Below, piece after piece: positions 1 to 20,003 of a stretch of DNA of 20,003 nt. This stretch comes from Rozella allomycis CSF55. Taxonomy: Eukaryota. Numbering within the stretch: position 1 is the first letter of the stretch; the number at the start of each line of letters is the position of its first letter. The DNA lies in contig KE561158.1 of NCBI GenBank assembly GCA_000442015.1, forward strand, positions 62,001 through 82,003, written 5' to 3'. Under the pieces are notes generated by a model. The model saw nothing but the letters and a program-made list of their open reading frames with translations, made no database searches and was not told the origin of the DNA. A program made the translations under genes and the position numbers.

Positions 1-485
1 TCTCTGTTGGACGATCTTCAGTGATATTAATTTCTTGTACTCGATTTCATAAATAATTATGACCTTACAATATTTCCCACGCCATGTCCTTTCGACAACT
101 ACCACACTGATGATTGACTATTTCAGATTACGTTACTTTGAATTTGAGATCAATGATTTGAGATTATTTAATGATCCAGACAATTTTTTCGATTTATGTG
201 ATGNGCACTGATGATTGACTATTTCAGATTAGGTTACTTTGAATTTGAGATGAATTTTTTGAGATTATTTAATGATCCAGACAATTTTTTCGATTTATGT
301 GATGATATAATCTTCATGATTTCCTCTGGGCAGTCGTAAACCAACAAATTCAGCGATGATCCTTGTGACGCCTATAATCACTTATAAGGATATAAAACCT
401 TAGACAGCAGTTCAAAAGATTCCATAGCTGATAACATTCTATTCTTGTAGCCTAAAAGAGGCAAGGCAACGTCAAAAATACTCAT
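1..485 (-). CDS. Hypothetical spliced protein with a degenerate IQ-like motif; 3' end runs off the window
   Basis: ATG at 485 preceded by AATTTCCC. GT-AG introns at 372-398 (27 nt, contains an in-frame stop), 107-136 (30 nt) and possibly 34-63 give MSIFDVALPLLG...ELLSK|ASQGSSLNLLVYDCPEEI...|VVVVERTWRGKYCK|KLISLKI. Interrupted by the duplicated segment at the n at 204. No family recognised. Confidence 0.45.
105..304. repeat. ~99-bp near-identical direct duplicate flanking gap n204 (probable allelic assembly overlap)
   Basis: 105-203 and 206-304 differ by a few substitutions and abut the n. Confidence 0.8.
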
Positions 486-522: not shown

Positions 523-1272
523 TTATTTCTTTTGTTCAGTCTTCTTTGGAGCAGCTTTCTTTGGCTCTTCACCATACTGAGCTAAAAGAGCATCTTTCTT
601 GGCTTGAACACGAGCAGCACGACGTTCACGGACGTTCTTGTTTCTTGCACGTTGAGCTTCAGCTTGATCACTTGATTCAAATTTATGAATAAAATTTACG
701 CTAACAATTTGGCACGTTGTTTTTCATTCTTGGCCTTGATGATATATTCCATCAAAACACGCTTGTTCTTGAAAACATTACCCTTTGACTTGAGGTAAAG
801 TTCACGGTACAAATGCTTGTCAATTTTGCCAGCTTCCCTGTATTTTCTTAGGAGGCGTCTCAAGACACGTTGACGGCGCATCCAGATGACCATGCTTGGC
901 ATACGAGCTTCAGCAGTACCTTGGCGTTTACCATATCCAGTATGACGACCTTTACGCTTGGCAGCCAATCTTTCACGAACACGGAATCTGGAGTGCATAG
1001 CTTGTGGTTGACGGATGATCAAACCATCTTTTACTAACTTGCGAATATCTTTGCCTAAAATTAAAATATGTTCAACAAAAAAATATTAAAGCAAATTGAA
1101 TGATCGTGTAATTTGAAACAGTTGCTTACGAGAATTTGCATTTCCGATGTTTTCAGTTTCCTTTGGATCCAACCAAACTTTGCGTTTTCCACATCCGAGA
1201 ACGGAAGCTGCTAAACGTTTCTGAGAGCGTAAATTTGGCCTAAACGTAACATATATAAGCTTAAAATTACAT
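523..1272 (-). CDS. RPL19: 60S ribosomal protein L19 (eL19), 4 exons
   Basis: Exons 1271-1272 (AT), 1130-1239, 700-1054, 523-670; introns 31, 75 and 29 nt. Spliced protein [26 protein letters not shown]...[18 protein letters not shown]...[15 protein letters not shown] is canonical eL19. Confidence 0.97.
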
Positions 1273-1451
1273 TAGAGGGAAATTTACAGGGGTCGTATTC
1301 GAAAAAAAAATTCACAAATTTTGGAATTGGAATTATCAGAAATTCTAAAAACTCTGTTTTTCACCATAAAATAACGAGTTTATAACTTTTATGAAAAATT
1401 TATCCCCATTTGTATATCTATTTGATAACACTCATTTTTCAATTTTTGTAA

Positions 1452-1709: not shown

Positions 1710-1766
1710 TAAATGAACTTTCAACCCAGATGAATGTCAATTGATTAATACAACATGTTTATTGAT

Positions 1767-4081
1767 CTATGTTGCTTCTTCTATTTCTTCGTCTGGAACA
1801 GATACGTATCCTTCATTTGATACACTTTTATATTTATAGTTTTTGCAAATGCGCATATATAGGAGAATTGCCAGCACTAAAATACCCGAATACATGACGG
1901 ATGTNGGAACAGATACGTATCCTTCATTTGATGCACTTTTATATTTATAGTTTTTGCAAATGCGGATATATAGGAGAATTGCCAGCACTAAAATACCCGA
2001 ATACATGACGGATGTCCACATTTCATGATGTGGAATATTACCAATTGGATCAAAAAGGTTAAATAGGATTACTAATAGGTTACCGAGAGCTATCGCTAAA
2101 AGCCATCCTGACTGGCAAATCGATTTCATCGATGAAGGTGCTTGTGAGTATGCTATATAAAGTCATTAATATTGTCTACCAAATTCCAAACCAGTTATAC
2201 TAACCAATACTTCCCCGCATGTAAGAACGATGTATTGAGGTATTTGCCACAAAATTGATATACAGTTATCATTGCATTGAGAGGCATCACTAAGTCTAGG
2301 GCCAGTCATGGTATTATCAATTTCAAATTGGAGATATGCTGACATTAAAAATGCTACAAGCGCAATTATCAAACCCGCGCCAATTTTCCTTAGTGCGGTT
2401 AATTTGATGCCAAATTTCCTGACAGCAGGGAAAATAAGTTTTTGAAATAAAGGAATCATAATTAAAATGAAAACAGTGTTCCAAACCTGCATTGATTCTG
2501 GAGGAATTGAAATTGTGCTGCCGAATATTGACGCTTTATGGTTCATTTGCCAAACCTGTGCCGTCCATCTAGATCCTTGTTGATCATAGATCATCCAAAA
2601 AACTGACAGTGGAGCGAAAATAATCAAGACAGAAAACACAGACTTGATTTCATCTATAGTTTTGCGGTCAAATAACGGGTATGCGTAATATAACCAATGG
2701 TTAGGTAATTCGGCCTCAGATTCTTCCCTTTTCCTTTTTCTTCTCTCTTTTATTGCAGTTTTTACAACATTAAACATCAAAATAGAAACATTCCCACTTA
2801 GAGGTCTGTGTTTGTAGGATTTAGAGCCAATAACAAACAAGCAAGTCGCTACAATTAACAAGATCGCGGGCAAGCCAAAAGCCAATGGAAAACATTGATC
2901 AGATCCAAAACTTTTGAATTTTAATAAAAAAATTACCATTGAACATTTTCCCTAATCCATGGAGTTATTATCATGGAAAAGAAACTTCCCGCATTTATCG
3001 AAAAATAGAACAGCGAGAAAAATAACGCTGATTGCTTAACCTGTGAAGCATCGAATTGATCACCACCAAAAGAAACAACACAGGGCTTTTTTGTTTGATT
3101 GTAATATTTACCTTGATACCTCCTGTACCTATAGCTAACAATAGAAGCCCAATTAAAGCCCCATAGGGCTGTGGTGGATTGCCGGCAACAGATGGAAATG
3201 CAGTCACTGCCATTACTATGTTCCCAATAATATATACAATAGAAAGAGTTAAAATTGTTCTATATTTTCCCCAATAGCTATCTGCTAAAATAGCCCCTAT
3301 TCAAATATAACATTGGCGTCATACCGAATAATGGAAAAAAATATGCCAACATGACAAATGAATGATAAATCGAAGTAGCCATTCCATCAGGGAATCTCAA
3401 AAACTGTGCTAGGTATGTCCACAGAATTGCCCGCATTCCATAGTAAGAAAACCTCTCGCAGAACTCATTACCGATTATAAAAANGCTTCCCGCATTTATC
3501 GAAAAATAGAATAGCGAGAAAAACAATGCGGACTGTTTAACCTGTGAAGCATCGAATTGATCACCACCAAAAGAAACAACACAGGGCTTTTTTGTTTGAT
3601 TGTAATATTTACCTTGATACCTCCTGTACCTATAGCTAACAATAGAAGCCCAATTAAGGCCCCATAAGGCTGTGGTGGATTGCCAGCAACAGATGGAAAT
3701 GCAGTCACTGCCATTACTATGTTCCCAATAATATATACAATAGAAAGAGTTAAAATTGTTCTATATTTTCCCCAATAGCTATCTGCTAAAATAGCCCCTA
3801 TTCAAATATAACATTGGCGTCATACCGAATAATGGAAAAAAATATGCCAACATGACAAATGAATGATAAATCGAAGTAGCCATTCCATCAGGGAATCTCA
3901 AAAACTGTGCCAGATATGTCCACAGAATTGCCCTCATTCCATAGTAAGAAAACCTCTCGCAGAACTCATTACCGATTATAAAAAATACAGATTTTGGAAG
4001 TGAATCACTAGAATGATTATCGGACCCCATTATTTCAGTAGGGCCTCCGGCTTCCAATAATTTATCTGAATCTTCCGACAT
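1767..4081 (-). CDS. PTR2: Proton-dependent oligopeptide transporter (POT/PTR2, SLC15 PepT-like); one gene with assembly-duplicated segments
   Basis: ExxERFxYYG motif (NEFCERFSYYGMR), PTR2 signature after splicing (GAILADSYWGKYRTI), FYFSINAGS, and WQIPQY...GLEFAYSQAP. Four short GT-AG introns. Duplicates at n1905 and n3484. Confidence 0.93.
1795..2015. repeat. ~110-bp duplicate flanking gap n1905 (probable allelic overlap)
   Basis: 1795-1904 and 1906-2015 are identical except for about 2 SNPs. Confidence 0.8.
2984..3984. repeat. ~500-bp duplicate flanking gap n3484 (probable allelic overlap)
   Basis: 2984-3483 and 3485-3984 are near-identical, including introns, with scattered and mostly synonymous SNPs. 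Confidence 0.8.
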
Positions 4082-4158
4082 TAAATTAATTTGGAAAAAT
4101 CTAAAATTGATTTATAGAAACTGCTAAGAATTCAAGTAGGCTTTAAAAAATTTATTCG

Positions 4159-4605
4159 TTAACGAATTGCAATACATTTTCGCTTCTCCGCCGCCTCGCT
4201 TTTGGCGACTCTGAGTTTCAAAACGCCATTATCCAAAGTAGCCTCTGTCTTTTCTGGATCCACTTGTGCCGGTAATCTCACACTTCGCTTCATTTTTCCG
4301 TAGAACCTCTCCGTCAAATGAATTGTTCCATTATTTTCGTCTCTTTGATCTCTCCTCTCTGTTTCCACTGTCAGCACATTATCTTCCAAGTTTACGGAAA
4401 TGTCCTCTTTCGCTATGCCCGGCAGATCGGCTTGTATCACATACGCGTTATCGAGTTCCGATATATCAAGAGCTAACTGTGGTTTAATATGAGTTGATTT
4501 AAATGGCTTTGAAACCTGCTTGTTGCTAGCAGGCTCATCAAAAAAGTCGTGTAAACGTTGTTCAATGTAGCGATCAAAGTTATCAACTGGTGTTATTCCA
4601 AACAT
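4159..4605 (-). CDS. Small heat shock protein (HSP20/alpha-crystallin family), intronless, 148 aa
   Basis: DISE...ADLPGIAKEDISV...ERFYGKMKRSVRLP...ATLDNGVLKLRV and a C-terminal IxI motif (CIAIR). Confidence 0.95.
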   Translation of the reverse strand: MFGITPVDNFDRYIEQRLHDFFDEPASNKQVSKPFKSTHIKPQLALDISELDNAYVIQADLPGIAKEDISVNLEDNVLTVETERRDQRDENNGTIHLTERFYGKMKRSVRLPAQVDPEKTEATLDNGVLKLRVAKSEAAEKRKCIAIR

Positions 4606-4630
4606 ATAGTTATTGGTATTAATTATGGAA

Positions 4631-4827
4631 AGTCATAAGTGCGCGCCTATTTATATTGTGACCCATCGATTTCTGGAAATTTCGAGATGTCTGATCAGAT
4701 TCGGAGAATTTCTACAAAATCTTATCNAGAGAGTCATTAGTGCGCGCCTATTTATATTGTGGCCCATCGATTTCTGGAAATTTCGAGATGTCGGATCAGA
4801 TTCGGAGAATTTCTACCGAATCTTATC
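4631..4827. repeat. ~96-bp duplicate of the sHSP promoter flanking gap n4727 (probable allelic overlap)
   Basis: 4631-4726 and 4732-4827 differ by about 5 substitutions. Confidence 0.75.
4648..4684 (-). promoter_or_regulatory. TATA box plus heat shock element of the sHSP gene
   Basis: TATAAATA on the minus strand at 4648-4655, about 43 nt upstream of the ATG. Perfect three-unit HSE tTTCtgGAAatTTCg at 4670-4684. Confidence 0.85.
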
Positions 4828-5132
4828 GAACGACATGAAGTTGATAATTGAACATGTAGTATAAATTTATTTATTCATATTCAATTGACTCTTCTGAGAT
4901 GATAATGGCTCAGCCATTAATAATAGGACTACTCAAACGTGACGAAATTTGGAAGGGAACAGCAAAATAAATTTGCAACATGATTGGCACAGACATTGGC
5001 ACTAACAAATTTAGAAAACGGAACAACAAAGTTACGATTACAGAGGGGGTCAGGATAAAAATATCCTCTTTGGTTTGCATGAAAATAATAATTATACCTA
5101 AAATCATGAAAATGATCTATTCAAGTCCACTC

Positions 5133-5143
5133 TATATAAATAG
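5133..5143 (+). promoter_or_regulatory. TATA box of the thaumatin-like gene
   Basis: TATATAAATAG about 30 nt upstream of ATG 5174. Confidence 0.6.
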
Positions 5144-5173
5144 CACTCATACCCCCGTTTCAAACTTTCAAAC

Positions 5174-5948
5174 ATGTACCATTTGCAAGCATCAATTCTG
5201 CTATCAGCTCTCACCACCTTTTCGCTAGCCTCCATCACCATAAATTTCACCAACCAATGCCATTCAGACATCTGGGTGGGCGGCATGGGNCGGCCTGCAC
5301 CTCCCAAAAGGCACCACACAATCCCTCAACCTGCGCACTCCGCTCACCGCCGGCCGGTTCTGGGGCCGCACGGGCTGCACCAAAACCCCCACCGGCCTCG
5401 TTTGTGAAAGCGGCGACTGCGGCGGCCAAGAGAAATGCCACAGCACCAGCGGCCAGCCCGCCACGCTGTTTGAATTGACTGTTGATTCGCAAATAACGTA
5501 TGATATCAGCAACGTCGACGGGTTTAATCTGCCGATGCGAGTGAGTGTTGGCAATGAGGATGGTAATAGGTGCAAGAGTATAGAGTGTACGTCGATGAAG
5601 CTTGGAATGTGTCCAAGGGATTTGCAGATTTTGAATGCACGGGAGGAGGTGGTTGCGTGTATGAGTATGTGCAAGGAGATTGATGATGCTCCGCATAGAG
5701 AAAAGTCGGCTAGTCTGTCAAGTATGTTTAAACAGGATAGTGCTGTTAGAGATCTTGTTTGTTGTATGGGAGAGTATGGGACACCGGACAAGTGCAATGT
5801 TAAAGCATGGCCCAGTCTAGATGGAGTTAATATGCAGTCGATGATCAAACAACTGTGTCCCGATGCATATAGTTACGCATACGATGATTTGACCTCTACA
5901 TTTATATGTGATTTGAATACTAAAGAGTTTACAGTCACATTTTGTTAA
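5174..5948 (+). CDS. Secreted thaumatin-like protein (PR-5/GH152), frame broken only at gap n5290
   Basis: Signal peptide MYHLQASILLSALTTFSLA, then INFTNQCHSDIWVG. After the gap: GRFWGRTGC...CESGDCGG...PATLFELT...YDISNVDGFNLPM...KQLCPDAYSYAYDDLTSTFIC...FTVTFC. Confidence 0.95.
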
Positions 5949-6028
5949 TAAACCTTTTAAAATTGTAAAATTCAAATAATAAAATTTATTGCTTTAGATC
6001 ACATAAACATTTTTCAATAGCTTGATAA

Positions 6029-9000
6029 TTAGAATGGCTTCACTCTAGTCTTACTCTTCAACATAGCATACGTAACAGTCTACCCAATTCAATCCCATAT
6101 CTTACCTGACCAGGCACCTTAACCTCACTCATCACCACGTCCCCAAAAACATCTCTATTCTTCTCCACAATATTCCACCACGCCTTTTCAAGCACCACAG
6201 CCGACCGACTGACCGGCGCATCCTACGCTCCCAAACACCAACACAGCATACCTCTCCATTAAACCTAATACAATTATCAATAACCAATTTAAAGTCGCTC
6301 AAAACTTGGCCAACATTCTCGTAAAAATCCTGCTGCAGTTTGGTATGGATCGTTGAGAGGTCCATTGGCTGCTTGATTATTTTCGGATAGTTGAAGAGCT
6401 TCAGTTGCTTGTAATCAACTGGCTCGTTGAATGGAAACGCGAACACTTCCTGTCTGATACCCTGGATCAGCTGAACAAGTCTGTGTTTTAAATCTCTAGG
6501 GATCGGGTTCTGCGGTTTCTTCAATGGCAGACATGAAACTAGTCTTGGCCATTCCTTTTCATAAAACAAATCCAATTTCTTTGCCATTACAAACACCTAA
6601 AATTGTTTCTGATTGAATCTATTTACTTCTGAATCATCGAGATTAAAAGTGTAAGCGTTTTTGATCATCAACTTGAAATCAAAGATGAAATCATCAATTG
6701 TTGCATACTTTTCAATACGCCCTGCGAGTGTTTTCAGATCCATGGGCATTCTGATAATGTCATAGTATTTGGGAATGGAATACAAGATGGCGTCAACGGG
6801 ATCCAAGAATGGAAATGCGAATGGCTGTTTTTTACATTTTTCAATCAAATTGTGGCAAACAATGATTTCTTCAGGATCCATTCTAGTGTGAGGCCAGGGT
6901 GTTAACCAACCAGCCACTTGAGTTTCAAACACATTTAATAATTCTAGAGCTTCGGTGTAGATGGAGGAATCTTGGTTGTTGTAAATGAAGCAGTTGACGA
7001 ATACTTGTTGCACATCGAGAATGAAATCAAAGGTGGAAGAGTAGTTTGAGAGATTTGATTCTATTGTAGAGAAATCCATTGGACGTTTAATTAAATGAAA
7101 GTAATTTGGGATATTTAAAGCTACTGGATCAACCGGTTCAAGAAAATGGTAACCTAATGGATGATCTTTTAAGAGAGATAGTAATGATTTGGCTTGATTT
7201 AAATTGAATGATTTAGGGAATCTACCAGACCAGCCATTGGAATAAGCTTCCAACGGTGCAGCTGATGTTAAAGAGATTGAAGGAGATTCAATTACTCTAT
7301 CAGAGTGGACTATTGTAGGGGACTGATTAATAATTGGAGACTCTATCAACGTAGATAATTCATCAATTTTGTAAGATTCATTGATTGTTTGTTCTTGTTG
7401 TTTTGAAGGTTTTAATTTTAATTTTATTGTAGAAGATTTTCTCCTTTCATTATTCAATTTCAATGAAACTTGCAATGATTTTCTACGCCCATCTCTTTCT
7501 CTCTCTCTTTCTCTTTCTACTTTTTCCCTCTCTAATCTCTCCCTCTCTAATCTCTCCAACCTCTCTAAATTTTCTAATTCATAATTCATTCTCTTTTGAT
7601 TCCACTCACTAATTTCTTCATTCTCAATTTGAATTCTAAAATTTCTATCATGCTCACTCTCATTATAATCACCAATAACTAAATCCTGCTGAAACAATGA
7701 CTTGACTCTAATTAAACACTTTTCATAAATCTTTTCAAGTTGAATTGAATTTTGATAAACAAGAGAACCTAAAAATAGAACAATGAAATTTCACAAATAC
7801 CTTTTTGATTAAAAAGTTGGCAATTTTTAAAGATTAATGAAACATCAGAATCAAAATGTTTAAAATTTTTGTAAATGTTTAATTTAGATTCAATTTTTGA
7901 TATATCCATTGGTCTTTTTATTTTGTTGAAATAGATTGGAATGTTTAATGCTATTGGATCTACAGGGTATAGAAAATCTATAGAAATTTTTTGAGATTTA
8001 ATTTTATCTAGAATTTCTAAAAATAGATCTAATAATTTCTTTTTTGGTTTTGGAATTAATTGTTTGGAAATTTGAAAAAATAATTTTTCAGTTTCCAGCC
8101 ATTCTTGTTTCTCTAATTTATTAAATGAAAATTTATTGTTTTTTATTAAAGATTCAAAAGATTCAACAAAAGATTCAATTGATTTAAATTGGTTCAAGTT
8201 GTTTCTCAACAATAAATAATCTGGATTAGTTAAGACCATTTGTCTTTCTCTTCCTGGATCATATTCCAATCTATTAACCAAACAAGCAATAACGCGATCA
8301 ATAGGAGGTACAGAGGGGGGTTGAAATGGTTGGGAATTAGTCACTGGTGAAGTAGTTGTAGTAAGAGGTGTAGTAGTAGCAGTAGAAGTAGTAGTAATTG
8401 ATTCAACCTTATCTTTCTCTTCTCCCTTCTCATCACCTTCACCTTCCACCCCTCCCCCTTCTACCTCTAACCACGTGGTAATGTTCTCATTAAAAAGATT
8501 CAACAAACTCTCCCCCTTCTTATAAAACAACGAATCAGGGGTATTAAAAGTAAAACAATTCTTGAAAATCAATTCAAAATCAAACATCAACTGATGCAAA
8601 TTCAAATACTTGCCACACAATGCCTTGCATTCAATAGTAAACAGATCCATCGGCTGCTTAATAACCTTGTAGTAATTATACACTCGCTTGTCAACTGGAT
8701 ACTTGAATATTTCAGACTCTGGAATCAAGCTTAATTGATCTAGAATTGATAATGCTTTTTCTGATATTTTGGTTGTGGAATTTGGAATTGCTATTATTGT
8801 TTTTATTGACTCTTCTGGAAGTGGATATTCTGGAATGTGATAACACAAGTCTAGATATTTAAATATTGATTTTAATCTCTGAGGATCGTTTATTAGTTTA
8901 TTAAATACATATTTTCTTATTCTGCTGCAAGTAGCATTAGCCAATGCCATAAATTCAGAAGTTTGTATAGACATTGAAGTAGATATTGAAGTAGACATTG

Positions 9001-10906
9001 AAGTAGATGGACCATAAGTAGTAGAAGTAGTATCAACTGTAGCAGTAGCCTCACCTTCCTTACTCTCTCCACTTCCCTCTCCTTCCTTTCTCTCTCTACT
9101 CTCTCCACTCTCTCTACTCTCTCCACTATCTTCACCCTTATCACACCACTGCCGTATGAAATCAATTAATTGTTGGACTTGCTTTCCATCTTCTTCAACT
9201 CTCGCAGGAATTTCCACATTACTCAACGATCTTCTACACTCCTTGCTAAAATACCTCTGCAATTTCAATCCCTTCTCATAAACAATAGACCCAGGGTCAT
9301 TGAATACAAAACAATTATCAAACATTAAAACAATATCGCTAATAAAATCACCGACAGTCTTGTAATGATTCAACTTGTATTCAATAGTGGACAAGTCTAT
9401 TGGATTAGTAATAATGTTGTAGTAGAATGGAGTTTTAATGTCAACTGGGTATCTGAATGGAATAGCCTCTGGATGTTCAGCCAGTCTGTTTAATAGCTTT
9501 TTGCAGGTTGGAATAAATAGTGAAATGTCATCGTTGTTGAAGGGTGAAGAATTGATGGACTTTCTTTTAATGTCTAGTTGGAATTGATTGAATTCATCTT
9601 CAACGTCTGATAATTGTTCTGGTTGTTCATTAATTGATATTTTAATTCTCATTGGTTGCATGAATTGTTTCTCATAATAGATTTCATATATTTGCATTAG
9701 ATAGCCATCCAACATGGGATTCACATTAAACAATTCTAATATTCTATTCTTTATCCATTCTTGCTGTTTCATCCATTCTTTGAATTTACATTGTTTTGTT
9801 TTTATCAATTTTAAGATATTAATCAAGCAGCAAACTTTAATTTCCAAGCAATCCCACTTGACCAAATCCAACACATAAGCCATCACATCCATTAGGGGAT
9901 TTAAAGGTAGTGAGTTTGACGTAGTAATAGATGTACTATTAGCAGTAACACCTGAACCTGTAGTAGTAATACTTGCACCTGTACTATTAACACTTACACT
10001 CGCTGTCACACTTGCACTACTACTCTTCCCCCCATTAACCCCACTAACTCCCCTNACTAGCAGTTGCACTACTACTACTTTTCCCCCCATTAACCCCACT
10101 AACTCCCCTTTCATCACCTCTTCCCTCTTGAAGAAAAGATAAAATTAATAAACTCTTGATGGCTTCTTTCCTAACAGAAATAAAATGCCCCTGTTTAGAA
10201 TAAGCTTTAAACAATTCCAAATCAATTTCCATTAACCTAGTCATTTGAAATTTACAAAGAGATTCCAAACACGAAACAGTCCACGTATTATGAAACGATG
10301 GAAACAACAAATCTTTCAATCGGTACCTCTCAATCTCTGACAGAATATCTTCAAACATGGGGTTTCTATAGTTCACTTTATTTCCTTTATTGATTATTAG
10401 AATAGATCTCGTTAATGATTTTATCACTGATGATACATAATAACTATCAGAATACTTTTTAAATCATTTCAATTGTTTACTTGATCATTTCCATTGTCAT
10501 TGTAACATAAAATATTCAACAGAAATTTAACTACAATCATTGGAGATTGGCCATTCTCATATCTAGAAAATGAAATTGCTTCTATTATTGCCTATTCTTA
10601 AGAGTTTAATGGTTTACTTTTTGCATAAAATAGTTTGTAAAGTTTTCAAATGAATTTGGCTTTGGCACTGTATAACTCTCTTGCTGTTCAGAATAACAAT
10701 ATCTTTCTTTCAATGGAAATAATAGTTTACCTATAATAATCAATTACTCTACTTGATTACCTCGTCTTGAAAAATGTTAATAAATATTTCAATCCCTTCC
10801 AATCCAAACTCTGATTCCCAACATGCTTCGCCAACGAATACGCAGCCTATTTGATTAGTCTTCAATCTTTACTTGCATTCTAACTCTATAAAATGCTTTT
10901 GAATCA
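6029..10906 (-). CDS. TAF2: TFIID subunit TAF2 C-terminal part fused to six bromodomains; 5' portion lost in gap n10907
   Basis: Spliced 5' part reads FYRVRMQ|AAYSLAK...NSFENFTNYFMQK|AI...LLNILCYNDN..|YSDSYY...EIERYRLKDLLFPSFHNTWTVSCL...YSKQGHFISVRKEA, matching TAF2. Six PVD...PMDL...N..(F/Y)N bromodomains follow in the same spliced frame. The stop at 6029 assumes a last 26-nt intron. Confidence 0.9.
10703..10760 (-). other. Double abutting mini-intron (30 + 28 nt) in TAF2
   Basis: ACGAG|gtaatcaagtagagtaattgattattatag|gtaaactattatttccattgaaagaaag|ATATTGT restores ...KTRYCY. Confidence 0.7.
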
Positions 10907-10907
10907 N

Positions 10908-11414
10908 CTTCATCAATAAATCCATTTGATTCACAGGAAACAAAGCCATATAAAAACGATAAAGAAATAGTTGCGATGAAGAGTCTTTTGGATGCTTACG
11001 AAACAAGAGACATCATAGCCTTTGAAAAGATTATTAAAGGTACTAAATAATAATAAACTAGAAAGAAAATGAGCTTTCAATAATGGGAGATTCCTTTATT
11101 AAGGATTTCATTGAGCCGATGATTCACCAGTTACGAACTTTGTTCATCCTAGACGCTACAATACCTTACTCTTCTGTTGATGTCTCATTTTTGGCTTCTT
11201 CTGCAAATATTAATAAAGAAAGAATTGAAGAATTAATAATTGAATTGTTGTTGGACAAGAAGCTACATGGAAGATACGATCAGATGAAGGGTGTTTTATA
11301 CTTGAAAGAAAAGTATTCGGTTAGTTTCTATCAAATAGGAATAATGTGAATGAAGAATTTTGGCAATCTATGAATGAGTGGTCAACATCATTGAACCGGT
11401 TAGTTGATGGAATG
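10908..11414 (+). CDS. CSN2: COP9 signalosome subunit 2, C-terminal PCI fragment bounded by gaps
   Basis: [23 protein letters not shown]...[23 protein letters not shown]...[14 protein letters not shown]...EWSTSLNRL; two ~26-nt introns. Confidence 0.92.
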
Positions 11415-11434
11415 NAAACGTAAAGGAACAAATA

Positions 11435-11815
11435 ATGATCAAACTTGATCGCAAAGAATACATTTCTTTGCCTTATGAACCAAAAAATGAACGCAAAGTT
11501 CGTAGTGCGGCTTGGGAGTCCTTTCATTTGGTATGTGATACCAACCAGGACTCTGTTGGGTATGCACTTTGCCAGCATTGCAAGGAACGAGATGGTTTAA
11601 TAAGCGTTAAACACAAAAGCACTTCCGGGCTTCTCAAACATATTAACATTTGTAAGAAGAGAAAACTTTCCGAGGCCAGTTTTCCGGAGCCAGGTCAAAT
11701 GCCAATAACTTCATTTTTAAAAGTACAAATTTTTATTTTTTATTTTAAAAAGGTAAAAAATGCTCTAATTGAATTAGGTATTGTCTTCCAGCAACTCTAT
11801 AATAATCCTTGTGAT
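11435..11815 (+). mobile_element. BED zinc-finger, truncated hAT-type transposase N-terminus or domesticated remnant
   Basis: RSAAWESF...ALCQHC...STSGLLKHINIC is a BED finger, followed by KKRK and QMPITSFL. No DDE domain or TIRs are visible; it begins 20 nt after gap n11415. Confidence 0.65.
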
Positions 11816-12268
11816 CCTTTTTCATTTGAATATCAGTATCTCCGGGATAAACGTAACCCCACATCTCTAAAAACAATTGCTGCTCTATTGTCAATGAAAA
11901 CACATGAATGCAATCTAATTGCTTCCCATTCGTGTTCTTTTTTCTTCCCCCGTTCGCTTTCATTCATTTTTTGTAGTGTCTTAAAAACTTCGTCGATGCT
12001 ACCTTTAGACCAAAATTTTACACAGCGCTCTGTTGCGACAGATGCCACTTTGAATGATTCAGAACATTCTCTAAACTCGTATTTTTTTGCCCGTTCTTGG
12101 TAATAGATAGATTTGTAGACCTTCAAGAGACTTTGTGTCAAATCTTTATTGCGGGGATTTCGTTGGATAGATTCGTATTCGGCATATTTGAAATCATCCA
12201 GTATCCACTGGAGAGAGGGTATACATGGAGATGACACCAAGGAACACTATAAGCAGTAATATTTTCAT
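11745..12268 (-). pseudogene. Possible frameshifted gene for a secreted protein
   Basis: Signal-peptide-like MKILLLIVFLGVISMYTLS at 12268 stops at 12194, while overlapping ORFs 11833-12240 and 11745-11963 continue in other frames. No normal-sized intron was found to join them. Confidence 0.3.
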
Positions 12269-12591
12269 AATTCAATGTGGCTTGTTCCAAAATTAAAAAT
12301 AGAAGTGGAAATGAGTTATTTTCGAATTTAGAAAATCATGGACTTTATTGCTAAATATTTATGATCCGTATCTTAAATCTTAAATCCTTCAAAGTGGTAA
12401 CTCGTAAGTCACCGGTTTTATCGTTACATTACGCAGTCAAAACCGATTACATTCCGTGTTCAGTGGTTTCTAATTCGTCACCTATAACTCAACAACTACC
12501 ATACAAAGTCTTCAAACTAAATACATTAAAACGATAACATCTTCTCTAATTAATTAAATTTGAATCCTATTTCCATTCTTACCCAAGCCAC

Positions 12592-13114
12592 ATGATGACC
12601 ACCAGATCATTCGATACAACTTCACGCCTCCCATACAAGCCTCAGTCCTCATCCGAGCGCTACTCTCTCCCTGAAGACTACCTTGAAATAGAAGTTGTAA
12701 ATCCCATTACAGTCAACGCCGGCACCAAGAACCAGTATACCGACTATGAGATCATTTGCCGAGTAAGCGATCCATATATGCCAAAAATAGACGAATATAC
12801 CTGTCTTCAAGAAGCAATCCAGCACCGTCCGTCGCCGATACTCTGATTTCGAATGGTTTCGTGATTTGCTAGAAAAGGAAAACCCGCGTGTTTCTATTCC
12901 GGCGCTACCTGGAAAAATATTTTTCAAGAATAGATTTGCACCGGAGATTATAGAGACGAGGAGAAGAGCGCTGGAACGCTTTCTGCAGGTGTAAGGATCT
13001 AGGGTTGATTTTAGTAGGGTATCCGGACATCCGTTGTTGCAAACTGGAAGTGCTGCAAAGACATTGGTTGCATTTATACAAGATCAGTCGTTTTCTCGAG
13101 AAGCCTTTTCGTAG
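12592..13114 (+). CDS. SNX3: Sorting nexin 3 (PX domain), 3 exons
   Basis: Introns 12763-12790 and 12991-13017. [17 protein letters not shown]...[16 protein letters not shown]...[12 protein letters not shown]...IPALPGK...[10 protein letters not shown]. Confidence 0.95.
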
Positions 13115-13297
13115 ACGCAATAAATTAATACATTATTTTCAAATTAAGTTCAGTTTGTTTTAAAATCCAAGTAAAAATAGCATCAAATAATCAAAATGTG
13201 TAAACTATTAAACAAAAAGCATGATCGATGTGCCATTTTATTGAAACAATTTCATTTGACACATTTCCAAATCCATTCTGTAAAATTCTCCGAAACA

Positions 13298-14349
13298 ATG
13301 GTGTTGATCAAAGAATAGTAAGACTCATTCTCCACGTATATAGTCGCATAGTGTTACCGATAACAGTAGACGAAGTAACTATGAATTAACCTGAAGATAG
13401 TACCAAGTGGGACAATTGTACACTGTTGCCGACATGTCCAAGAGCGAATCTGACGGCGATTCCGGCGTAGAAATTCTCGAAAACAAGCCGTACGACGACC
13501 CGGAGCTTGGCAAGGGACAGTATACGCACAAGATCTACCATCTCGGCAGGTAATAATGGTGGTTGTGTTTGGAGTAGCAAAGTGCCGAGGTTTCTGGCGA
13601 TGATTGCGCCGGCGTCTGCGCTGAGGCTGGATGAGCAGGCGTGGAATGGGTACCCGCATTGCAAGACAGGTAGGATGTGTGTGATGCTTTTAGAGTAGTT
13701 TTGACGGTACGTGGGTGGATGGATGGAGATTTAGAGTCATTTTCTGGGGGAGAGGTTTTCGCTGATTATAGAGTCGAATCATTTAGCTGATCGCGGGACG
13801 ACTGAGAATGTAAGGGGGATGGTATAGTGTAGTAGGCGCTTAATTTGAGTGCGGAGCAGTTGAAGCAGCGGGAGGTTGTGTATATGGATATAGCGAATGA
13901 TCCAGTTGACCATTATGATGAGAAGAATGATCCAGCCAAGGTTAGGAGTGAGAAGACTGGGAGGGGACCTTTGACTGGGAATTGGAAGGTTTGGTGATGT
14001 GAGTGTGTGTGAATTTAGGATACATGTGAGCCTGTGATGTGTTGTTATAAAACGGTTATTATAAAGTTCAAGGTGTTTGGATTGGAGACAAAGACTGAGC
14101 ATTTTATAGCCAAAGTATGGAATTGCATTGAATATGAGTAGTATCAATTTGGATTGTTTCAAAAGTTTCATAGAATGTTATTTTGTTTGCTTGACAAGTG
14201 GTTTGGAATGACTATTGAAGATATTAGAAGGATAGAAGAGGAAGCTAAAAAGGAGTTGAATTTGGTAATAGATATGATTGATTGAGATTTAATAGAGAAT
14301 GTCAAAGAACAATTTAACTGATGGAGTTGCAGCACCAGCGCCTGCCTAG
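13298..14349 (+). CDS. PITPN: Class I phosphatidylinositol transfer protein (PITPalpha/beta-like, START-like fold), 10 exons, 266 aa; absent from the ORF track
   Basis: Exons 13298-13317, 13344-13374, 13401-13549, 13578-13669, 13699-13706, 13735-13809, 13836-13988, 14019-14114, 14142-14264, 14296-14349. [24 protein letters not shown]...[15 protein letters not shown]...[15 protein letters not shown]...KTGRGPL...MCCYK...[12 protein letters not shown]. Confidence 0.96.
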
Positions 14350-14471
14350 ACAGAGATTGAATGAGGAATGTACAATGAATAAATCATTATTTAAACTAAC
14401 TGTAATTTTAATAGTATTTTAAATCATTATTATTACATTTTAGAATAATTTTAATCTCAAATATATTAACT

Positions 14472-17400
14472 TTATTTGATTGAATTGAAAAACTCATCAG
14501 CTGTTGTCACCGAATAATCTTGCTCTTGATCCTGCTCATTCTCCAATTCTTCCAACAACTGATTCAACGACAATTTCTTATTCTTATTCACAACCTTTTT
14601 ATTATTCTCCTTTTTAAACAAATCAATCAACTCTGAAGTGTTCATTGAACTAGTTGAAGAATTTTGTTCATTAACAACTGAATTAGCCACAGCCAATTTG
14701 AATTTTTGCAAACTAGAAACACAATTTATGAAATTTACTTTAAAATTTTCTCTTCCAGGGTGTCTTTGCAAATTAATCTGTACACGTTGACAACCTTCTT
14801 TTGGCCTATTCTGTGCGCTCTGTCCATGGCTTGCAAATCTTTCCTAAGTTTAAAACGCTGAATTTAGTTACATGGGGTTCCAATCGTGTTCCATGAAGAT
14901 TACAGTGTCAGCCCCTGTCAGATTGAGACCCAAGCCACCAACTTGAGTAGTTAAAATTAAACAATCAATTGAAGGATCAGAATTAAATTTTGAAACGATA
15001 TCAATTCTTTTTGTTGAATCTACAGATCCATCTAATCTTAGATAAGAAATGAATGGGAAATGAGGTTTGAATAGAATATTTTCAATTAAATCCAGGGTTG
15101 ATTTTAGTTGAACAAAGATTAATATTCTGTGGGGACTTAAATTATTATCTGGTGATATTCCACAGTCTATCAGCAATTGTTTCAAAGCAACAAACTTTCC
15201 ACTAACCTCCAACTGTGACATTAAAGAAGAGTTTGAAGGTACAGAAGTTGGCAAGGAGTTTGTTTCCATTTTAACCTCTTTAACATCTTTAACACCTTTA
15301 ACACCTTTAACAACTTTAGCATTTTTAACATCTTTAGTGGCTTTACTCTTTCCCTTACCCTTCACTTTAACTTCTTCACCCTTCACTACCTCACCCTTAC
15401 CACTCACCTCACCTTTCTCACCCTCAATTCTTTCATCTTTGAGTAATAATGGATGAGTGATTAATCTTCTTAATTCTTGCAAACTCTGAAACACATGAAT
15501 TTCATCCAATTCAATTTGCTCATAAATCTTTGATTGAATTTTAGAAAGTGAACAATAATAATCTTGCATAATCTTGGGTGGCAAATCATTTAAAACTTGA
15601 TCTTTAATTCTTCTCAACATGAATGGCAGCATTTGTCTGTGTAAACCATCCAATGCAATAACCCCTGCTTCATTCATTTTAACTTCACCCTTTATTTTAA
15701 CGTCACTCTATATTTTAACGTCACTTTTAACTCTTACTTCACCCTTAACTCTTACTTCACTCTTAACTCTATCACCCATCTTATTCTCATTTATTTTCAT
15801 CTTGATGGGCTTGACATATTTCTCATTGAATTCTTGCTCACTGCCTAGAAATCCAGGCATTAGAAAATCAAAAATAGACCAAAGTTCTAGAATGTTATTT
15901 TGGATTGGAGTGCCAGTTAAAACTAATCTATGCTTAGCCACAATAGATTTAACAGCCAAAGAAATTTTAGTTTTTGGATTTTTGATTACATGGCCTTCAT
16001 CTAGAATGAAATAATTGTAATTGAATTTCTTAAAGTAGTGGAGATTGTTTCTTAAAAAGTCAAAGCTGCAAATGAAGACATTGTAGTTTGATGTTGATTG
16101 ATTAAGTGGCCAATCTTTTTTGTTTTTTGAATGGAATTGCAGGGGTTTTAAAAAGGAAGAGAAAGATTTGATTTCATTTTCCCAGTGGCCTATTAAAGAG
16201 GGTGGGCAAACAACCAAGCTAGGAATTTTATTATTCTTAAACTGAACAGCCGAAACAGCGCAAATTGTTTGCAATGTTTTACCTATATCAATTAAAGTAA
16301 TATCTTTTACCTATGTCAATGCAACTATCACCACTTTACCTATGTCATTTCAACTAACATCGTTTACCTATGTCAATTAAACTATCACTACTTTACCTAT
16401 GTCATTTCAAACCCATTTGATTACCTAATCCCATGTCATCACATAGTGCTCCATGTAGTCCATACTCTTGTAGAAATAATAACCAATTAACACCTTTCAA
16501 TAATAAACACTCTAATTACCTTCTTGTTGATATTTTCGCAGAGTAGCGTTAATTTCAGTTGGAATTTCATAATTTTTAATCTTCTTGTTATCTAGTAGAC
16601 AATCAATGAAATCATTATTGATGTTTCTATTCTTGTTTAGTAGAATGATTTGAATTAATTCACCAAAACAAAAACAAGATTTATTTCTAATTTCTTTGTT
16701 TGAATCACTCATCAATGATAGAATTGGAATTATTATTTCATTTGAAATTGAATCAATCAAAATATTTTCTTTTAAAATTAATTCAATCAAATCTAAAATT
16801 CCAAATTTAAATTCATAAATTTCTTTAATCAAATCTTTCAAATCTCTAAAATATTTTTCATCTCTTTTCAATAAATTTATAAATATTTTAATTGCATTTT
16901 CATTTCTATTTTTTATCAAATTTATTATTTTCTCTATTGGAATTTTATTTAAATAAACATTGTCCAACTCTCCACTAACAACCTCCAGCACTTCCAGCAA
17001 AGAAAAAGGTGAAGTAGTTAAGGTTGGAGTAGGTTGAGTTGGAGAGTTAGTAGTGGTTGGAGTGCTAGTCTCAATAGTAGTAGTAGTATTGACAGTAGAA
17101 GTAGTCTCAATAGAAGTAGAAGTAGTAGTCTCAATAGAAGTAGTAGGTTCACCTTCTTTCTTTTCTTCTGCCTTTTCAACTCCCTTTTCCACTTCTAATC
17201 CTTCAAGGGAAATGATTTGATTGAAAATGGATATTTCGTGTAGATTGTTGCCAAACTCTCTCACAATTAATTTTAAAACATTTCTGGAAGCTTCATTCTT
17301 CATTTCAATTAAATTTTTAATAATTTTTTCCTTTTTAAACTTTTTGAATACTTTAACAATTGAATTTGAAACAATTTCTAAAATTTCTTTATTTTCTTCT

Positions 17401-19777
17401 CTTCTCAAACAAAACATTAATGGTCTCACAACTTGATTCAATGCTAAATTCACATCATTCTTGACCTTTACAGCAACCTCCACAGCAACTTCTCTATAGA
17501 GTTGTGGGAGTTGAGGTTGAGGGAGTTGAGGTTGAAGGGGTTGGAGTTGATCACTAACATTCCCATTCACTTCCCCATTCACTTCCCCTTCCCCTTTCCC
17601 CTCACCATGCACTTCCCCTTCACCAGTGACTTCCCCTTTCTCCTCACCATTCTCACCATTCTCACCATCTGCTTCCCCTTTAACTTCCATAAAATAGTTT
17701 AATAAATAAAAATTCAAATTCTTCTTTTCAATTAAACTCAAAAACTTTATAATTTTATTATAATTTGATTCATTAATTAAAACAGAAATCATTTTAAATG
17801 AATAAATTCTATTTCTAATCAAAACATCTTCTCCAAACACTCTAATATCCATTTCAACTTCATTCTCAACTTGAATCAAAACTCTTTCAATAAATTTCTC
17901 AATCTTTTCAATTTCAATCTCAAATTTTTTAATCTTTTTCATTAAATCTAAACTTTTATCTAAAATCATCTTTTTTAATTCTTTTTAATCTATTTTACTT
18001 TATTTTCTTCTTTCAAACTATTTTCTATCAATTTTTCAATCAATTCATTCATCAATTCTCTCTCCACTTCTTTAATTGTTAAAGTATTCATCATCCCTTC
18101 AATTGATTCTAAAACTGACATTCTAACTCCAATTATTGAATGTCTAAAAAACTGAAACATATTTGGCAAAAATTTATTCAAATAAAGAGAAGGGTTAGAA
18201 GGGTTAGAAGGGGGAGTAGTAGAGGTAATTGGGGGTTGACATGGAGAAGTAGTAGCAGTAGCAGTAGTAGTAGTAACAATCTCACCACCCATCTCACTTA
18301 GGGTTACAAGCTTGGATAATAGTCTCATTATAGATTCAGTTGAACACGTCAAATCATCCAACTCTTTCATATTATCACTCAGAATATTCATCACTTGCTC
18401 CTTTTCATCCTTCAAATACTCAACTATCGCATACATTGATTCAGCTCCAGCCTTTTTAATATCATCTTCTTCACTCTTCAACGCTTCTATTATCACCCCA
18501 TACACAATTGGCTTCAACTCACTAAACAAATCTCTTCTCACCCCCAATATATACTTGATTCCCAACAGTCCACTCAATCTAACCTCCCAATGCTCATTCT
18601 CACTCAACTCTACCAACAACCCCATTATTCTCTTCACATTCTCATCACTCACACATCTCATCAACAACCCCAAACACTGTCCACCAGTCTCTCTAACTGG
18701 AACTGATATACTATCATCTATATAATCAGCAAATCTATCCAACGCCAACAAACTCACTAGTCTCAATCCAACATCAACACTCCATCTCTCATGCTTTTCT
18801 TCATTCTTTTCTTTACTCAATCCCTTCCTCTTCCCTCCATCCCTTCCATGCTCTCTTATAATCTCACTCAACCCCAACACTGCTCCATGTCTCACATTCC
18901 AATTCGTATCAAATATCTCAACACAAAACTCTTCACACAGTCTCTGAAACTTCCACTCGCCATCCTCTCCCTTCATCTCTCCTTCACCCTCCTCTGTCTT
19001 AGCCTTCTTGCCAACCTTCATCAACTCTTCGGCATTCACCCGCTTCTTATTCCTACTCAACCCCAAAATTAACTCTCACTTTTTCATTCGCTTCAATCTA
19101 TTCCTCTCTCGAGCACTCAGCCCCTCCATCTCCACCCTTTCTTCATCCTCTTCCACTTTCACAAAATCACTCTCCTCTACCAAACTCTCCATAAATTGTG
19201 CACCCAGCCCCAATCGTTGCATCATCATCTTTCTCTGCTCCTTCAAATCAGCCGTCAACTCACTCACATCTTGGTCATATTCCTACTCTTGCAAATAACC
19301 AACTCTTTACATCCCCAGATGACGCTACCAACAATTTCCCATCATTCAACACTCGTTCCAAATCATACGCCTCAAAAGTCAATCTTCCTTCATTCTATCC
19401 CCACATTTAATTCTTGTTACCTCATCCTGCACTTTCTCATCTTTATTCTCCTCATCTTCCACATCATAATCTTCACCACAAACATTCCTCACAATCTCCC
19501 TAACAGCAACCGCAGCCGCCCATCGCGTCTCCCCACTCTTGCTCCTCAAAAACCGTTTCACCTATAACCCCCAAACAATTACCCTTACCCTCCTTATCAA
19601 ATACCCAAACTCTTCTGGATACTCGCGCTGGATATCCCCAAGATTTCGCGCAGCAGACTCTCGTATCCCCTGCGTCGACCCACTGTCCAATAACAACACC
19701 AATCGGTCAAGTCTATACGTTCACACTCTATTCATTACCTACATGCTGTTTTTAAATGGTTTTTACCTGCTAGTCAT
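14472..19777 (-). CDS. MOT1: TBP-associated SNF2-family ATPase Mot1/BTAF1, multi-exon
   Basis: [47 protein letters not shown]...[72 protein letters not shown]. Confidence 0.97.
16283..16424 (-). repeat. Array of five abutting 28-29 nt GT...AG mini-intron units within MOT1 motif I
   Basis: Units 16397-16424, 16368-16396, 16340-16367, 16311-16339 and 16283-16310 each start GTAA and end TGA(C/T)ATAG. Confidence 0.9.
19713..19766 (-). other. Double abutting mini-intron (28 + 26 nt), first intron of MOT1
   Basis: ATGACTAGCAG|gtaaaaaccatttaaaaacagcatgtag|gtaatgaatagagtgtgaacgtatag|ACTTGACCGA gives MTSRLDR. Confidence 0.75.
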
Positions 19778-19801
19778 CTTTTTTCGTCGCTCATTAGGAC
19801 C

Positions 19802-19810
19802 CTATTTATA
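19802..19810 (-). promoter_or_regulatory. TATA box upstream of MOT1
   Basis: TATAAATAG about 25 nt upstream of ATG 19777; the same 9-mer precedes the sHSP and thaumatin genes. Confidence 0.55.
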
Positions 19811-20003
19811 GACGTACCCCGGTAATCTTTTTCCGAATGGCGGATTCCCGAAATTTCGTAAATAATTCAGGCGGAGAAATAAGAGGAAAAACTTTAACTT
19901 TTTAAAATACTTGTTAATGAATTAAAATATTGAATTATGAATGTTTAAAATTATAAGTTATAGTTTTATCGGACGGGGAGTTTACGACCCGGACTTCAGA
20001 AAC

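What the first reader, a model, noticed from the sequence alone, without database searches (positions are those of the whole stretch)
19713..19766. MOT1 first intron is two non-homologous abutting mini-introns (28 + 26 nt)
Seen: a 54-nt phase-2 intron in the Arg codon of SRLDRL has a central TAG|GTAATG, and each half is a complete GT...AG unit of normal size. The halves show little similarity, unlike the five-unit array, so the arrangement looks old and maintained. Removing only one half does not yield MTSRLDR. Inference: a second independent zero-exon case.
Basis: partly seen in the sequence, partly recalled or inferred. Interest (0 to 1): 0.75.

Follow-up and report, generated by a model that had tools for sequence, protein, structure and literature searches.

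The report
Two back-to-back mini-introns in MOT1
The first intron of the MOT1 gene of the fungal parasite Rozella is 54 bases long and is built like two of this genome's normal 27-base introns placed end to end, so it may be cut out in two steps, but no RNA data were available to show that.

Summary
On the minus strand, ATG 19777 opens an 11-nt exon. It is followed by 54 nt (19766..19713), made of a 28-nt and a 26-nt GTAA...TAG unit meeting at TAG|GTAATG. Removing all 54 nt gives MTSRLDRL, the canonical MOT1 N-terminus. Removing either half alone gives a stop at codon 5.

The window is Rozella allomycis CSF55, and the public protein record already reads with all 54 nt removed.

In the window, 18 simple introns are 26-32 nt long, so each half has the normal size. 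A central AG|GTAA arises by chance in about 0.4-0.7% of simulated 54-nt introns. The halves are no more alike than unrelated introns.

New here: 36 of 80 environmental fungal MOT1 loci carry an intron at exactly this codon and phase. It is a single intron of 51-124 nt, and none has an internal AGGT.

Against two-step removal being necessary:
- A 75-nt RPL19 intron in the same window contains no internal AG.
- An equally well-scoring 28-nt GTAA...TAG unit sits unspliced inside a MOT1 exon.
- No RNA run covered the locus.

Verdict: the anatomy is real and unlikely to be chance. Two-step removal through a zero-length exon is the best reading (about 0.6) but is unproven. "Old and maintained" is untestable here.

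The parts
19803..19810 (-). TATAAATA-like element 26-33 nt upstream of the ATG (putative core promoter)
   Evidence: Read. Its promoter function is inferred, not tested.
19767..19777 (-). MOT1 exon 1: ATG plus 8 nt, encoding M-T-S and the first two bases (AG) of the Arg codon
   Evidence: 76 of 88 full-length homologs begin M-x-[ST]RLDR.
19739..19766 (-). Unit A, 28 nt, GTAAAA...GTAG: the 5' half of intron 1
   Evidence: Its 5' site scores 6.7 bits and its 3' site 4.1 bits, within the leave-one-out range of 18 simple introns.
19713..19738 (-). Unit B, 26 nt, GTAATG...ATAG: the 3' half of intron 1
   Evidence: Its 5' site scores 5.8 bits and its 3' site 5.5 bits.
19733..19741 (-). Central junction TAG|GTAATG: juxtaposed 3' and 5' splice-site consensus, the putative zero-length exon
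   Evidence: The chance rate is 0.16-0.7% for (T)AGGTAA in register.
19589..19712 (-). MOT1 exon 2: last base of the Arg codon, then [15 protein letters not shown]...
14472..19777 (-). Whole MOT1/BTAF1 coding region. Its 11 intervening sequences are 54, 27, 26, 28, 27, 29, 26, 142, 30, 28 and 26 nt long.
   Evidence: Exact spliced alignment of P0001. Pfam finds HEAT, SNF2-rel_dom and Helicase_C.

Best explanation
Intron 1 of the Rozella allomycis MOT1 gene sits at an intron position shared with many other fungi, a phase-2 split of the Arg codon in M-T-S-R|L-D-R-L. In Rozella the 54 nt there are organised as two complete mini-introns of the genome's standard size, 28 and 26 nt, that abut at TAG|GTAATG.

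I propose that both internal sites are functional and that the spliceosome removes each unit as an ordinary intron of about 27 nt. Either order works. Removing unit A first joins exon 1 (ending AG) to GTAATG, which keeps a 5' site. Removing unit B first joins the end of unit A (GTAG) to exon 2, which keeps a 3' site. The junction therefore acts as a zero-length exon. One-step removal of all 54 nt may also occur and gives the same mRNA. Any half-spliced RNA stops at codon 5.

Shown: the anatomy, the gene model, the size match, the improbability of the junction and the conserved position.

Inferred: that the internal sites are actually used, and that selection keeps them.
For: - **Gene model.** Removing all 54 nt gives MTSRLDRL, which matches the public protein exactly. 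76 of 88 homologs of at least 1500 aa have this N-terminus.
- **Size.** 18 simple introns in the window are 26-32 nt long. The 9 simple MOT1 introns are 26-30 nt. The two halves are 28 and 26 nt.
- **Junction.** In-register AGGTAA occurs in 0.36-0.7% of simulated or shuffled 54-nt introns, and TAGGTAA in about 0.16%. None of 27 distinct orthologous-position introns in other fungi has any internal AGGT.
- **Site strength.** The internal 5' site scores 5.8 bits and the internal 3' site 4.1 bits. Both lie inside the leave-one-out ranges of real introns, -0.2..6.9 and 0.7..5.7.
- **Divergence.** The halves show no residual similarity while the 7-nt junction is perfect. This is what selection on the junction would leave after an old duplication or an intron split.
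- **Precedent in the same gene.** A 142-nt intervening sequence (16424..16283) is five abutting 28-29-nt GTAA...ATAG units, so chains of mini-introns are tolerated.
- **Window-wide scan.** GTAA...TAG|GTAA...TAG pairs occur 5 times, all in MOT1: this intron and 4 neighbour pairs of the array. With the looser GTAA...AG ends used in the simulations there are 7 minus-strand pairs; 300 Markov simulations of the window gave a mean of 0.17 and a maximum of 2.
Against: - There is no RNA evidence of any kind.
- Two-step removal is not needed. The RPL19 gene in the same window has a 75-nt intron (1129..1055) with no AG between the GTAAG at its 5' end and its 3' AG, so it must be removed in one step.
- Motif plus length does not predict use. 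A 28-nt GTAA...TTAG unit inside a MOT1 exon scores 5.8 and 4.9 bits, yet it must stay in the productive mRNA.
- A 30-nt GTAT...CAG unit abuts a real PITP intron but encodes conserved residues.
- Strict decoys are not significantly depleted in 10.35 kb of coding sequence: 1 observed against 2.9 expected, and 118 of 500 shuffles had no more than the observed count.
- 54 nt lies within the 51-79-nt range of most orthologous single introns, so it could simply be an unshrunk old intron.
- No conserved branch-site motif could be defined.
The window holds three intervening sequences over 40 nt.
Confidence: 0.6

Rival explanations
1. [quoted passage not shown]
For: - The same position holds single introns of 51-124 nt (median 61) in 36 of 80 environmental fungal MOT1 loci.
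- Rozella splices a 75-nt RPL19 intron that has no internal AG.
- Unused decoys with equal site scores exist in exons.
- The public annotation reads as if all 54 nt were removed.
Against: - The in-register junction is improbable by chance: 0.16-0.7% for (T)AGGTAA and 3% even for bare AGGT. It was seen in 0 of 27 orthologous introns.
- Both parts fall exactly in the 26-32-nt window that all 18 simple introns occupy.
- It is unclear how the spliceosome would skip a consensus 3' site at the normal distance of 28 nt.
Confidence: 0.33
2. There is a different split: a 21-nt intron (19766..19746), a 3-nt micro-exon (CAT) and a 30-nt intron (19742..19713), giving MTSSILDRL.
For: The least-intron open-frame search returned this path as an equal-cost solution.
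Against: - It destroys the conserved S-R-L-D-R motif present in 76 of 88 full-length homologs.
- It disagrees with the public protein.
- 21 nt is below the shortest of the 18 simple introns, which is 26 nt.
- The 30-nt part would start GTAG rather than GTAA.
Confidence: 0.03
3. The gene model is wrong. Translation starts elsewhere, so only the 26-nt half (or neither half) is an intron.
For: None was found.
Against: - The ATGs inside the 54 nt run into stops within 1-5 codons (read).
- Exon 2 has no in-frame ATG before LDRL.
- The 11-nt exon supplies exactly the conserved M-T-S-R.
- A TATAAATA element lies 26-33 nt upstream of ATG 19777.
Confidence: 0.02

Closest known systems
Zero-nucleotide-exon recursive splicing at ratchet points in Drosophila (Duff et al., bioRxiv 10.1101/006163; abstract and opening text read)
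   Same: Both have a juxtaposed 3' and 5' splice site (AG|GT) inside an intervening sequence. It acts as an exon of length zero, so the whole is removed in more than one splicing reaction.
   Different: The Drosophila cases lie in very large introns (the Ubx example is 73 kb), proceed 5' to 3' by regenerating a 5' site, and are backed by junction reads and lariats. Here the whole element is 54 nt, each part is a self-sufficient standard-size intron, either order is possible, and no RNA evidence exists.
Complex intervening sequences and stwintrons of fungi, e.g. the Lipomyces reticulon-like gene (PMC7138796, abstract read; other stwintron papers seen only as search listings)
   Same: Both are fungal intervening sequences built from more than one U2-type intron unit. 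They can be removed by one reaction or by two consecutive ones. The authors propose that they arise when new functional splice sites appear within an existing intron, which is also a candidate origin here.
   Different: In a stwintron, an internal intron interrupts the donor, acceptor or branch element of an external intron, so the order is forced. Here the units are not nested. They abut, and each keeps its own intact sites.
The five-unit mini-intron array in the same gene (16424..16283, 142 nt)
   Same: Both have the same architecture: GTAA...TAG units of 28-29 nt meeting at TAG|GTAA, all of which must be removed to restore a conserved motif ([12 protein letters not shown]).
   Different: The array units are clear tandem duplicates: 77% matches at period 28 and 88% at period 57, with alignment scores of 10-23. 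The two halves of intron 1 score -1, no better than unrelated introns. The array's position is almost never an intron elsewhere (1 of 80 loci), whereas the intron 1 position is shared with 36 of 80.
Ultra-short intron genomes (Paramecium about 25 nt, PMC8997360 and PMC5014332, search listings only; microsporidia, dicyemids and myxozoans, PMC13644364, passages read; Rozella S23 introns of about 30 nt noted in PMC6349667, passage read)
   Same: Both have a narrow intron size class below about 32 nt with minimal splice-site motifs (GTA...AG).
   Different: None of the listings or passages seen describes abutting mini-introns or zero-length exons.

Membership tests
U2-type GT-AG spliceosomal intron (each half, and the whole) | GT at the 5' end and AG at the 3' end | tested here: met
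   unit A is GTAA...TAG, unit B is GTAA...TAG, and the whole is GTAA...TAG.
U2-type GT-AG spliceosomal intron (each half, and the whole) | Removal restores a conserved open reading frame | tested here: met
   This holds for the whole 54 nt only. Removing one half alone gives a stop at codon 5.
U2-type GT-AG spliceosomal intron (each half, and the whole) | A recognisable branch site upstream of the 3' AG | tested here: inconclusive
   No shared branch motif is visible in the 16 MOT1 units aligned by eye. Each half contains A-rich candidates, but nothing is testable.
U2-type GT-AG spliceosomal intron (each half, and the whole) | Spliced RNA observed | not testable with these tools
   Only one run was listed, with 0.00 of the sampled words. 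It laid 12 contigs, all only partly on the stretch; the 8 pieces shown are 25-40 nt.
Zero-nucleotide-exon recursive splice site | Juxtaposed AG|GT with 3' and 5' consensus inside an intervening sequence | tested here: met
   TAG|GTAATG at 19741..19733. The site scores fall within the range of real introns.
Zero-nucleotide-exon recursive splice site | Junction reads and lariats to and from the internal site | not testable with these tools
   no RNA cover.
Zero-nucleotide-exon recursive splice site | Located in a very long intron, with stepwise removal solving a length problem | tested here: not met
   The whole element is 54 nt. A 75-nt intron in the same window is necessarily removed in one step.
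Zero-nucleotide-exon recursive splice site | Internal site conserved in related species | not testable with these tools
   No close relative was found. The best environmental MOT1 loci are 38-45% identical.
Stwintron (spliceosomal twin intron) | An internal intron interrupts the donor, acceptor or branch element of an external intron | tested here: not met
   The units abut without overlap. Each has its own intact GTAA and TAG both before and after the other is removed.
Tandem-duplication intron array (as at 16424..16283) | Sequence similarity between neighbouring units | tested here: not met
   The halves score -1, against 10-23 within the array and a mean of 1.9 for unrelated pairs.
MOT1/BTAF1 (the host gene) | N-terminal HEAT repeats, a C-terminal SNF2 ATPase, and the M-x-SRLDRL N-terminus | tested here: met
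   Pfam finds HEAT, SNF2-rel_dom and Helicase_C. The best named hits are TATA-binding protein-associated factor, MOT1 or BTAF1.

The most novel reading that the evidence does not exclude
Rozella's splicing machinery works with a length ruler of about 26-32 nt. Intervening sequences longer than that are, where possible, processed as chains of ruler-sized mini-introns joined by zero-length exons. MOT1 would show both routes to such chains in one gene: recent tandem duplication (five units) and, at intron 1, conversion of an ancient fungal intron of about 55-60 nt into two independent mini-introns ('intron fission') that selection now maintains.
Probability: 0.3. Interest if true: 0.7.

Novelty: new variant of a known kind. 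Interest (0 to 1): 0.45.

Why it matters
If the central sites are used, this would be recursive, zero-length-exon splicing at the opposite extreme of scale from the Drosophila cases: 54 nt instead of tens of kilobases. It would also be in a fungus-related parasite with ultra-short introns.

It would be a natural, minimal substrate for asking how a spliceosome with almost no sequence signals uses intron length to pair sites. It would also show one way that introns multiply or split without changing the protein.

If the sites are not used, the locus is still a clean example of a strong cryptic site pair that the machinery ignores, which bears on the same question.

The public gene model is unaffected either way.

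Tried and rejected
- **RNA evidence.** No RNA holder was listed. The only run offered (X1, found by species label) holds 0.00 of the sampled words. Laid on window 4-20003 at 85% likeness, it gave 12 contigs, all only partly on the stretch (the 8 pieces shown are 25-40 nt), and no joints in the joints table. This says nothing either way.
- **Whole genome.** None is held, so a genome-wide intron length histogram could not be made.
- **Close relatives.** A metagenome scan with the HEAT exon found none. A scan with an 8-protein MOT1 alignment gave 80 loci of only 38-45% identity. These served for intron position, not for conservation of the junction.
- **Annotated proteins of other window genes.** Two searches did not return the Rozella TAF2-bromodomain protein. 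Its introns therefore remain ab initio.
- **Possible third abutting pair (10760..10703, TATAG|GTAAAC).** One search flagged it. Homology to a Furculomyces TAF2 shows that the 3' end of its second unit overlaps coding sequence (K-E-R-Y-C-Y-S). I found no consistent frame, so it is unresolved and not counted.
- **Alternative 21 + 3 + 30 split.** Rejected.
- **Small RNA in the intron.** Rfam gave only one sub-threshold hit outside the intron (E = 0.28).
- **RNA structure bringing the ends together.** The 81-nt region folds worse than shuffles: -4.9 against -9.4 kcal/mol, z = +1.96.
- **Depletion of exonic decoys, as a test that motif plus length is sufficient.** It is weak at best.
- **Earlier scan notes.** Nothing on this genome or this topic.
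- **Literature.** Five searches listed no paper on abutting mini-introns in Rozella or in other short-intron organisms. The Rozella genome paper (James et al. 2013) is not held. Supplements were not opened, so intron statistics there may bear on this.

Full report
**What is there.**
The gene lies on the minus strand. ATG 19777 opens an 11-nt exon (ATG ACT AGC AG). It is followed by 54 nt, 19766..19713, and then by exon 2 starting A CTT GAC CGA TTG.

The 54 nt consist of a 28-nt unit (19766..19739) and a 26-nt unit (19738..19713). Each begins GTAA and ends TAG, and they meet at TAG|GTAATG. Removing all 54 nt reads M-T-S-R-L-D-R-L, with the intron in phase 2 of the Arg codon. Removing either unit alone leaves AGG TAA, a stop at codon 5.

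**Gene and organism.**
Pfam finds HEAT repeats, the SNF2-related domain and Helicase_C on the large minus-strand exons.

A search with the helicase exon returned a 1620-aa protein that is 100% identical and that NCBI names for Rozella allomycis CSF55 (P0001). It was followed by MOT1/BTAF1 proteins of fungi and animals at about 40-47% identity.

P0001 begins [15 protein letters not shown]. An exact spliced alignment of P0001 onto the window gives 11 intervening sequences of 54, 27, 26, 28, 27, 29, 26, 142, 30, 28 and 26 nt. The public gene model therefore already removes all 54 nt. What is at issue is how they are removed.

**Is the 11-nt first exon real?**
One search listed 120 proteins, of which 88 are at least 1500 aa long. 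76 of these 88, P0001 included, carry [ST]RL[DE]R within the first residues, most as M-x(1-3)-SRLDRL and many exactly MTSRLDRL.

The 12 misses fall into two groups:
- Near-variants: KSLDRL, CRLDRL, RRLDRL and one MTSRLLLL.
- Models with different or truncated N-termini.

This excludes an alternative start. It also excludes the alternative split 21 nt + CAT + 30 nt (MTSSILDRL) that my open-frame search offered at equal cost.

**Normal intron size in this genome.**
No genome is held, so the census covers the window only. It has 18 simple introns, all 26-32 nt long:
- Nine simple MOT1 introns of 26-30 nt.
- RPL19 introns of 31 and 29 nt.
- Two PITP introns of 26 and 28 nt. The Pfam IP_trans match is continuous across the 28-nt one.
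- Five further introns in the PTR2 and TAF2-bromodomain genes, called from open-frame continuity only.

Fifteen of the 16 MOT1 units start GTAA and 12 of the 16 end TAG. A published passage also notes introns of about 30 nt in Rozella S23 (PMC6349667). Both halves of intron 1 therefore have the standard size and the standard ends.

**Is the junction chance?**
I simulated 54-nt introns with fixed ends and the interior composition of the window's introns. I then asked how often an internal junction splits them into two parts of 24-30 nt each:

| Junction | Simulated introns | Shuffles of this intron's own interior |
|---|---|---|
| AGGT | 3.0% | 3.4% |
| AGGTA | 1.0% | 1.6% |
| AGGTAA | 0.36% | 0.7% |
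| TAGGTAA | 0.16% | 0.17% |

A scan of the whole window for two abutting GTAA...TAG units of 24-32 nt found five pairs, all on the minus strand in MOT1: this intron and the four neighbour pairs of the five-unit array. With the looser GTAA...AG ends used in the simulations there are 7 minus-strand pairs. Three hundred first-order Markov simulations gave a mean of 0.17 and never more than 2.

**The halves are unrelated.**
Their global alignment scores -1. The mean for 120 pairs of unrelated window introns is 1.9 (sd 3.4), and 105 of the 120 pairs score at least as high. Units of the five-unit array score 10-23 against each other.

If the pair arose by duplication, the interiors have been randomised while the 7-nt junction stayed perfect.

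**Comparative evidence (new).**
No close relative of Rozella could be found. A scan with an alignment of eight MOT1 proteins returned 80 environmental loci at 38-45% identity.

In 36 of the 80, the N-terminus is M-x(1-4)-[STG]-R|LDRL with a GT...AG intron in phase 2 of the same Arg codon. These give 27 distinct intron sequences of 51-124 nt (median 61), and none of the 27 contains AGGT anywhere.

About 13 loci encode the N-terminus without an intron (two of its 15 "contiguous" calls were re-read as intron-bearing). The remaining loci were not resolved or lack the N-terminus. The intron-bearing loci share an LDRLVT N-terminus, most with a second intron right after it, so they may be one fungal group. 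From recall, I take them for ascomycetes; this was not tested.

The position of Rozella intron 1 is therefore ancient or at least recurrent. Elsewhere it holds one intron of about the same total length, and only Rozella has the mid-intron site pair.

**Evidence that two-step removal is not forced.**
- RPL19 in the same window has a 75-nt intron (1129..1055). Its removal restores ...NANSR|KDIRKL..., with the L19e domains continuous. It contains no AG apart from the one in the GTAAG at its 5' end, so the Rozella spliceosome can remove introns well above 32 nt in one step.
- A 28-nt GTAA...TTAG unit inside a MOT1 exon scores 5.8 bits (5' site) and 4.9 bits (3' site). The internal sites of intron 1 score 5.8 and 4.1. 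Yet the exonic unit must be kept, because the 490-codon frame runs through it.
- A 30-nt GTAT...CAG unit directly abuts a real PITP intron but encodes conserved IP_trans residues.
- Exonic decoys are at most mildly depleted in 10.35 kb of coding sequence:

| Decoy definition | Observed | Expected from codon shuffles | Shuffles with no more than observed |
|---|---|---|---|
| GTAA...TAG, 26-30 nt | 1 | 2.9 | 118 of 500 |
| GTA...[T/A/C]AG, 24-32 nt | 41 | 54.3 | 16 of 500 |

Site motifs plus length, as far as I can model them, do not decide use.

**Other checks.**
No Rfam family lies in or near the intron. The region is less structured than shuffles. No RNA run covers the locus.

**Reading.**
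The anatomy is real. The junction is unlikely to be chance. Complete divergence of the interiors combined with a perfect junction is what selection on the internal sites would produce, whether the pair began as a duplication (as the array in the same gene shows can happen) or as new sites arising inside an older intron of about 55 nt. The latter route has been proposed for fungal complex introns (PMC7138796, abstract).

I therefore favour two independent mini-intron excisions through a zero-length exon, in either order, at about 0.6. A single-step 54-nt intron with an unused cryptic pair stands at about 0.33. Both give the same mRNA, and only RNA intermediates, lariats, mutagenesis or closer relatives can separate them.

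**Comparison and novelty.**
The nearest described mechanism is zero-nucleotide-exon recursive splicing in Drosophila (10.1101/006163). This element fails that family's context feature of very long introns, and its evidential features could not be tested.

It is not a stwintron, because the units abut rather than nest.

Five literature searches listed nothing on abutting mini-introns in Rozella or in other short-intron organisms. The Rozella genome paper and all supplements were not available to me.

I class the finding as a possible new variant of a known kind, of moderate interest. It is the weaker companion of the five-unit array in the same gene.

Noticed in passing
window 16283..16424 (minus strand): A 142-nt intervening sequence in the Gly codon of [12 protein letters not shown] (SNF2 motif I) is five abutting 28-29-nt GTAA...ATAG units. 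They match at 77% for period 28 and 88% for period 57, so a two-unit block was itself duplicated. The downstream exon starts GTAAAACA, which is itself donor-like. In 78 of 80 environmental MOT1 loci this motif is uninterrupted; only L054 has a GT right after the first G of the Gly codon.
   Followed up: partly
window 1240..1270, 1055..1129 and 671..699 (minus strand): The ribosomal protein L19e gene has a 31-nt intron that splits its start codon (AT|G). Its 75-nt second intron, the longest unpartitionable intron in the window, contains no internal AG. A third intron is 29 nt.
   Followed up: partly
loci L001-L080, N-termini of MOT1: A phase-2 intron in the Arg codon of M-x-S-R|LDRL is present in 36 of 80 environmental fungal MOT1 loci. 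It is 51-124 nt long (median 61). Most of these loci also have a second intron right after LDRLVT.
   Followed up: yes
window 6132..10868 (minus strand): The gene combines a TAF2 C-terminal TPR region (Pfam TPR_TAF2_C) with at least five bromodomains. This architecture is also seen in a Furculomyces protein named TFIID subunit 2 (P0122). No TAF2 N-terminal (aminopeptidase-like) part was found upstream in the window, and the 5' end of the model is unresolved.
   Followed up: partly
window 10703..10760 (minus strand): Another abutting pair, GTAA...TATAG|GTAAAC...AAAG (30 + 24 or 28 nt). Homology (K-E-R-Y-C-Y-S) shows that the 3' end of the second unit overlaps coding sequence, and no consistent frame was found. 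It may be an intron followed by an exon that starts with a donor-like GTAAA, as at the five-unit array.
   Followed up: partly
window 17471..17444 (minus strand) and 13520..13549 (plus strand): These are exonic decoys. One is a 28-nt GTAA...TTAG unit inside the 490-codon MOT1 exon, with site scores equal to those of real introns. The other is a 30-nt GTAT...CAG unit directly abutting the real 28-nt PITP intron (13550..13577) but encoding conserved IP_trans residues.
   Followed up: yes
window 3278..3351 and 3779..3851 (minus strand): The PTR2/POT transporter gene contains two copies, 501 nt apart, of a segment that includes the same 28-nt intron. This is either an internal tandem duplication or an assembly artefact. 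The window also contains several N bases.
   Followed up: no
window 105..304, 1794..2015 and 4631..4827: Three two-copy tandem repeats with periods of 101, 111 and 101 nt at 94-97% identity. Their nature is unknown.
   Followed up: no
window 14871..17984 (minus strand): Rozella MOT1 carries long low-complexity inserts (G-E-V/K-V-K repeats and T/S-rich runs). They are absent from a second, partial Rozella protein model (P0002, 81% identity), which treats some of them as introns.
   Followed up: no
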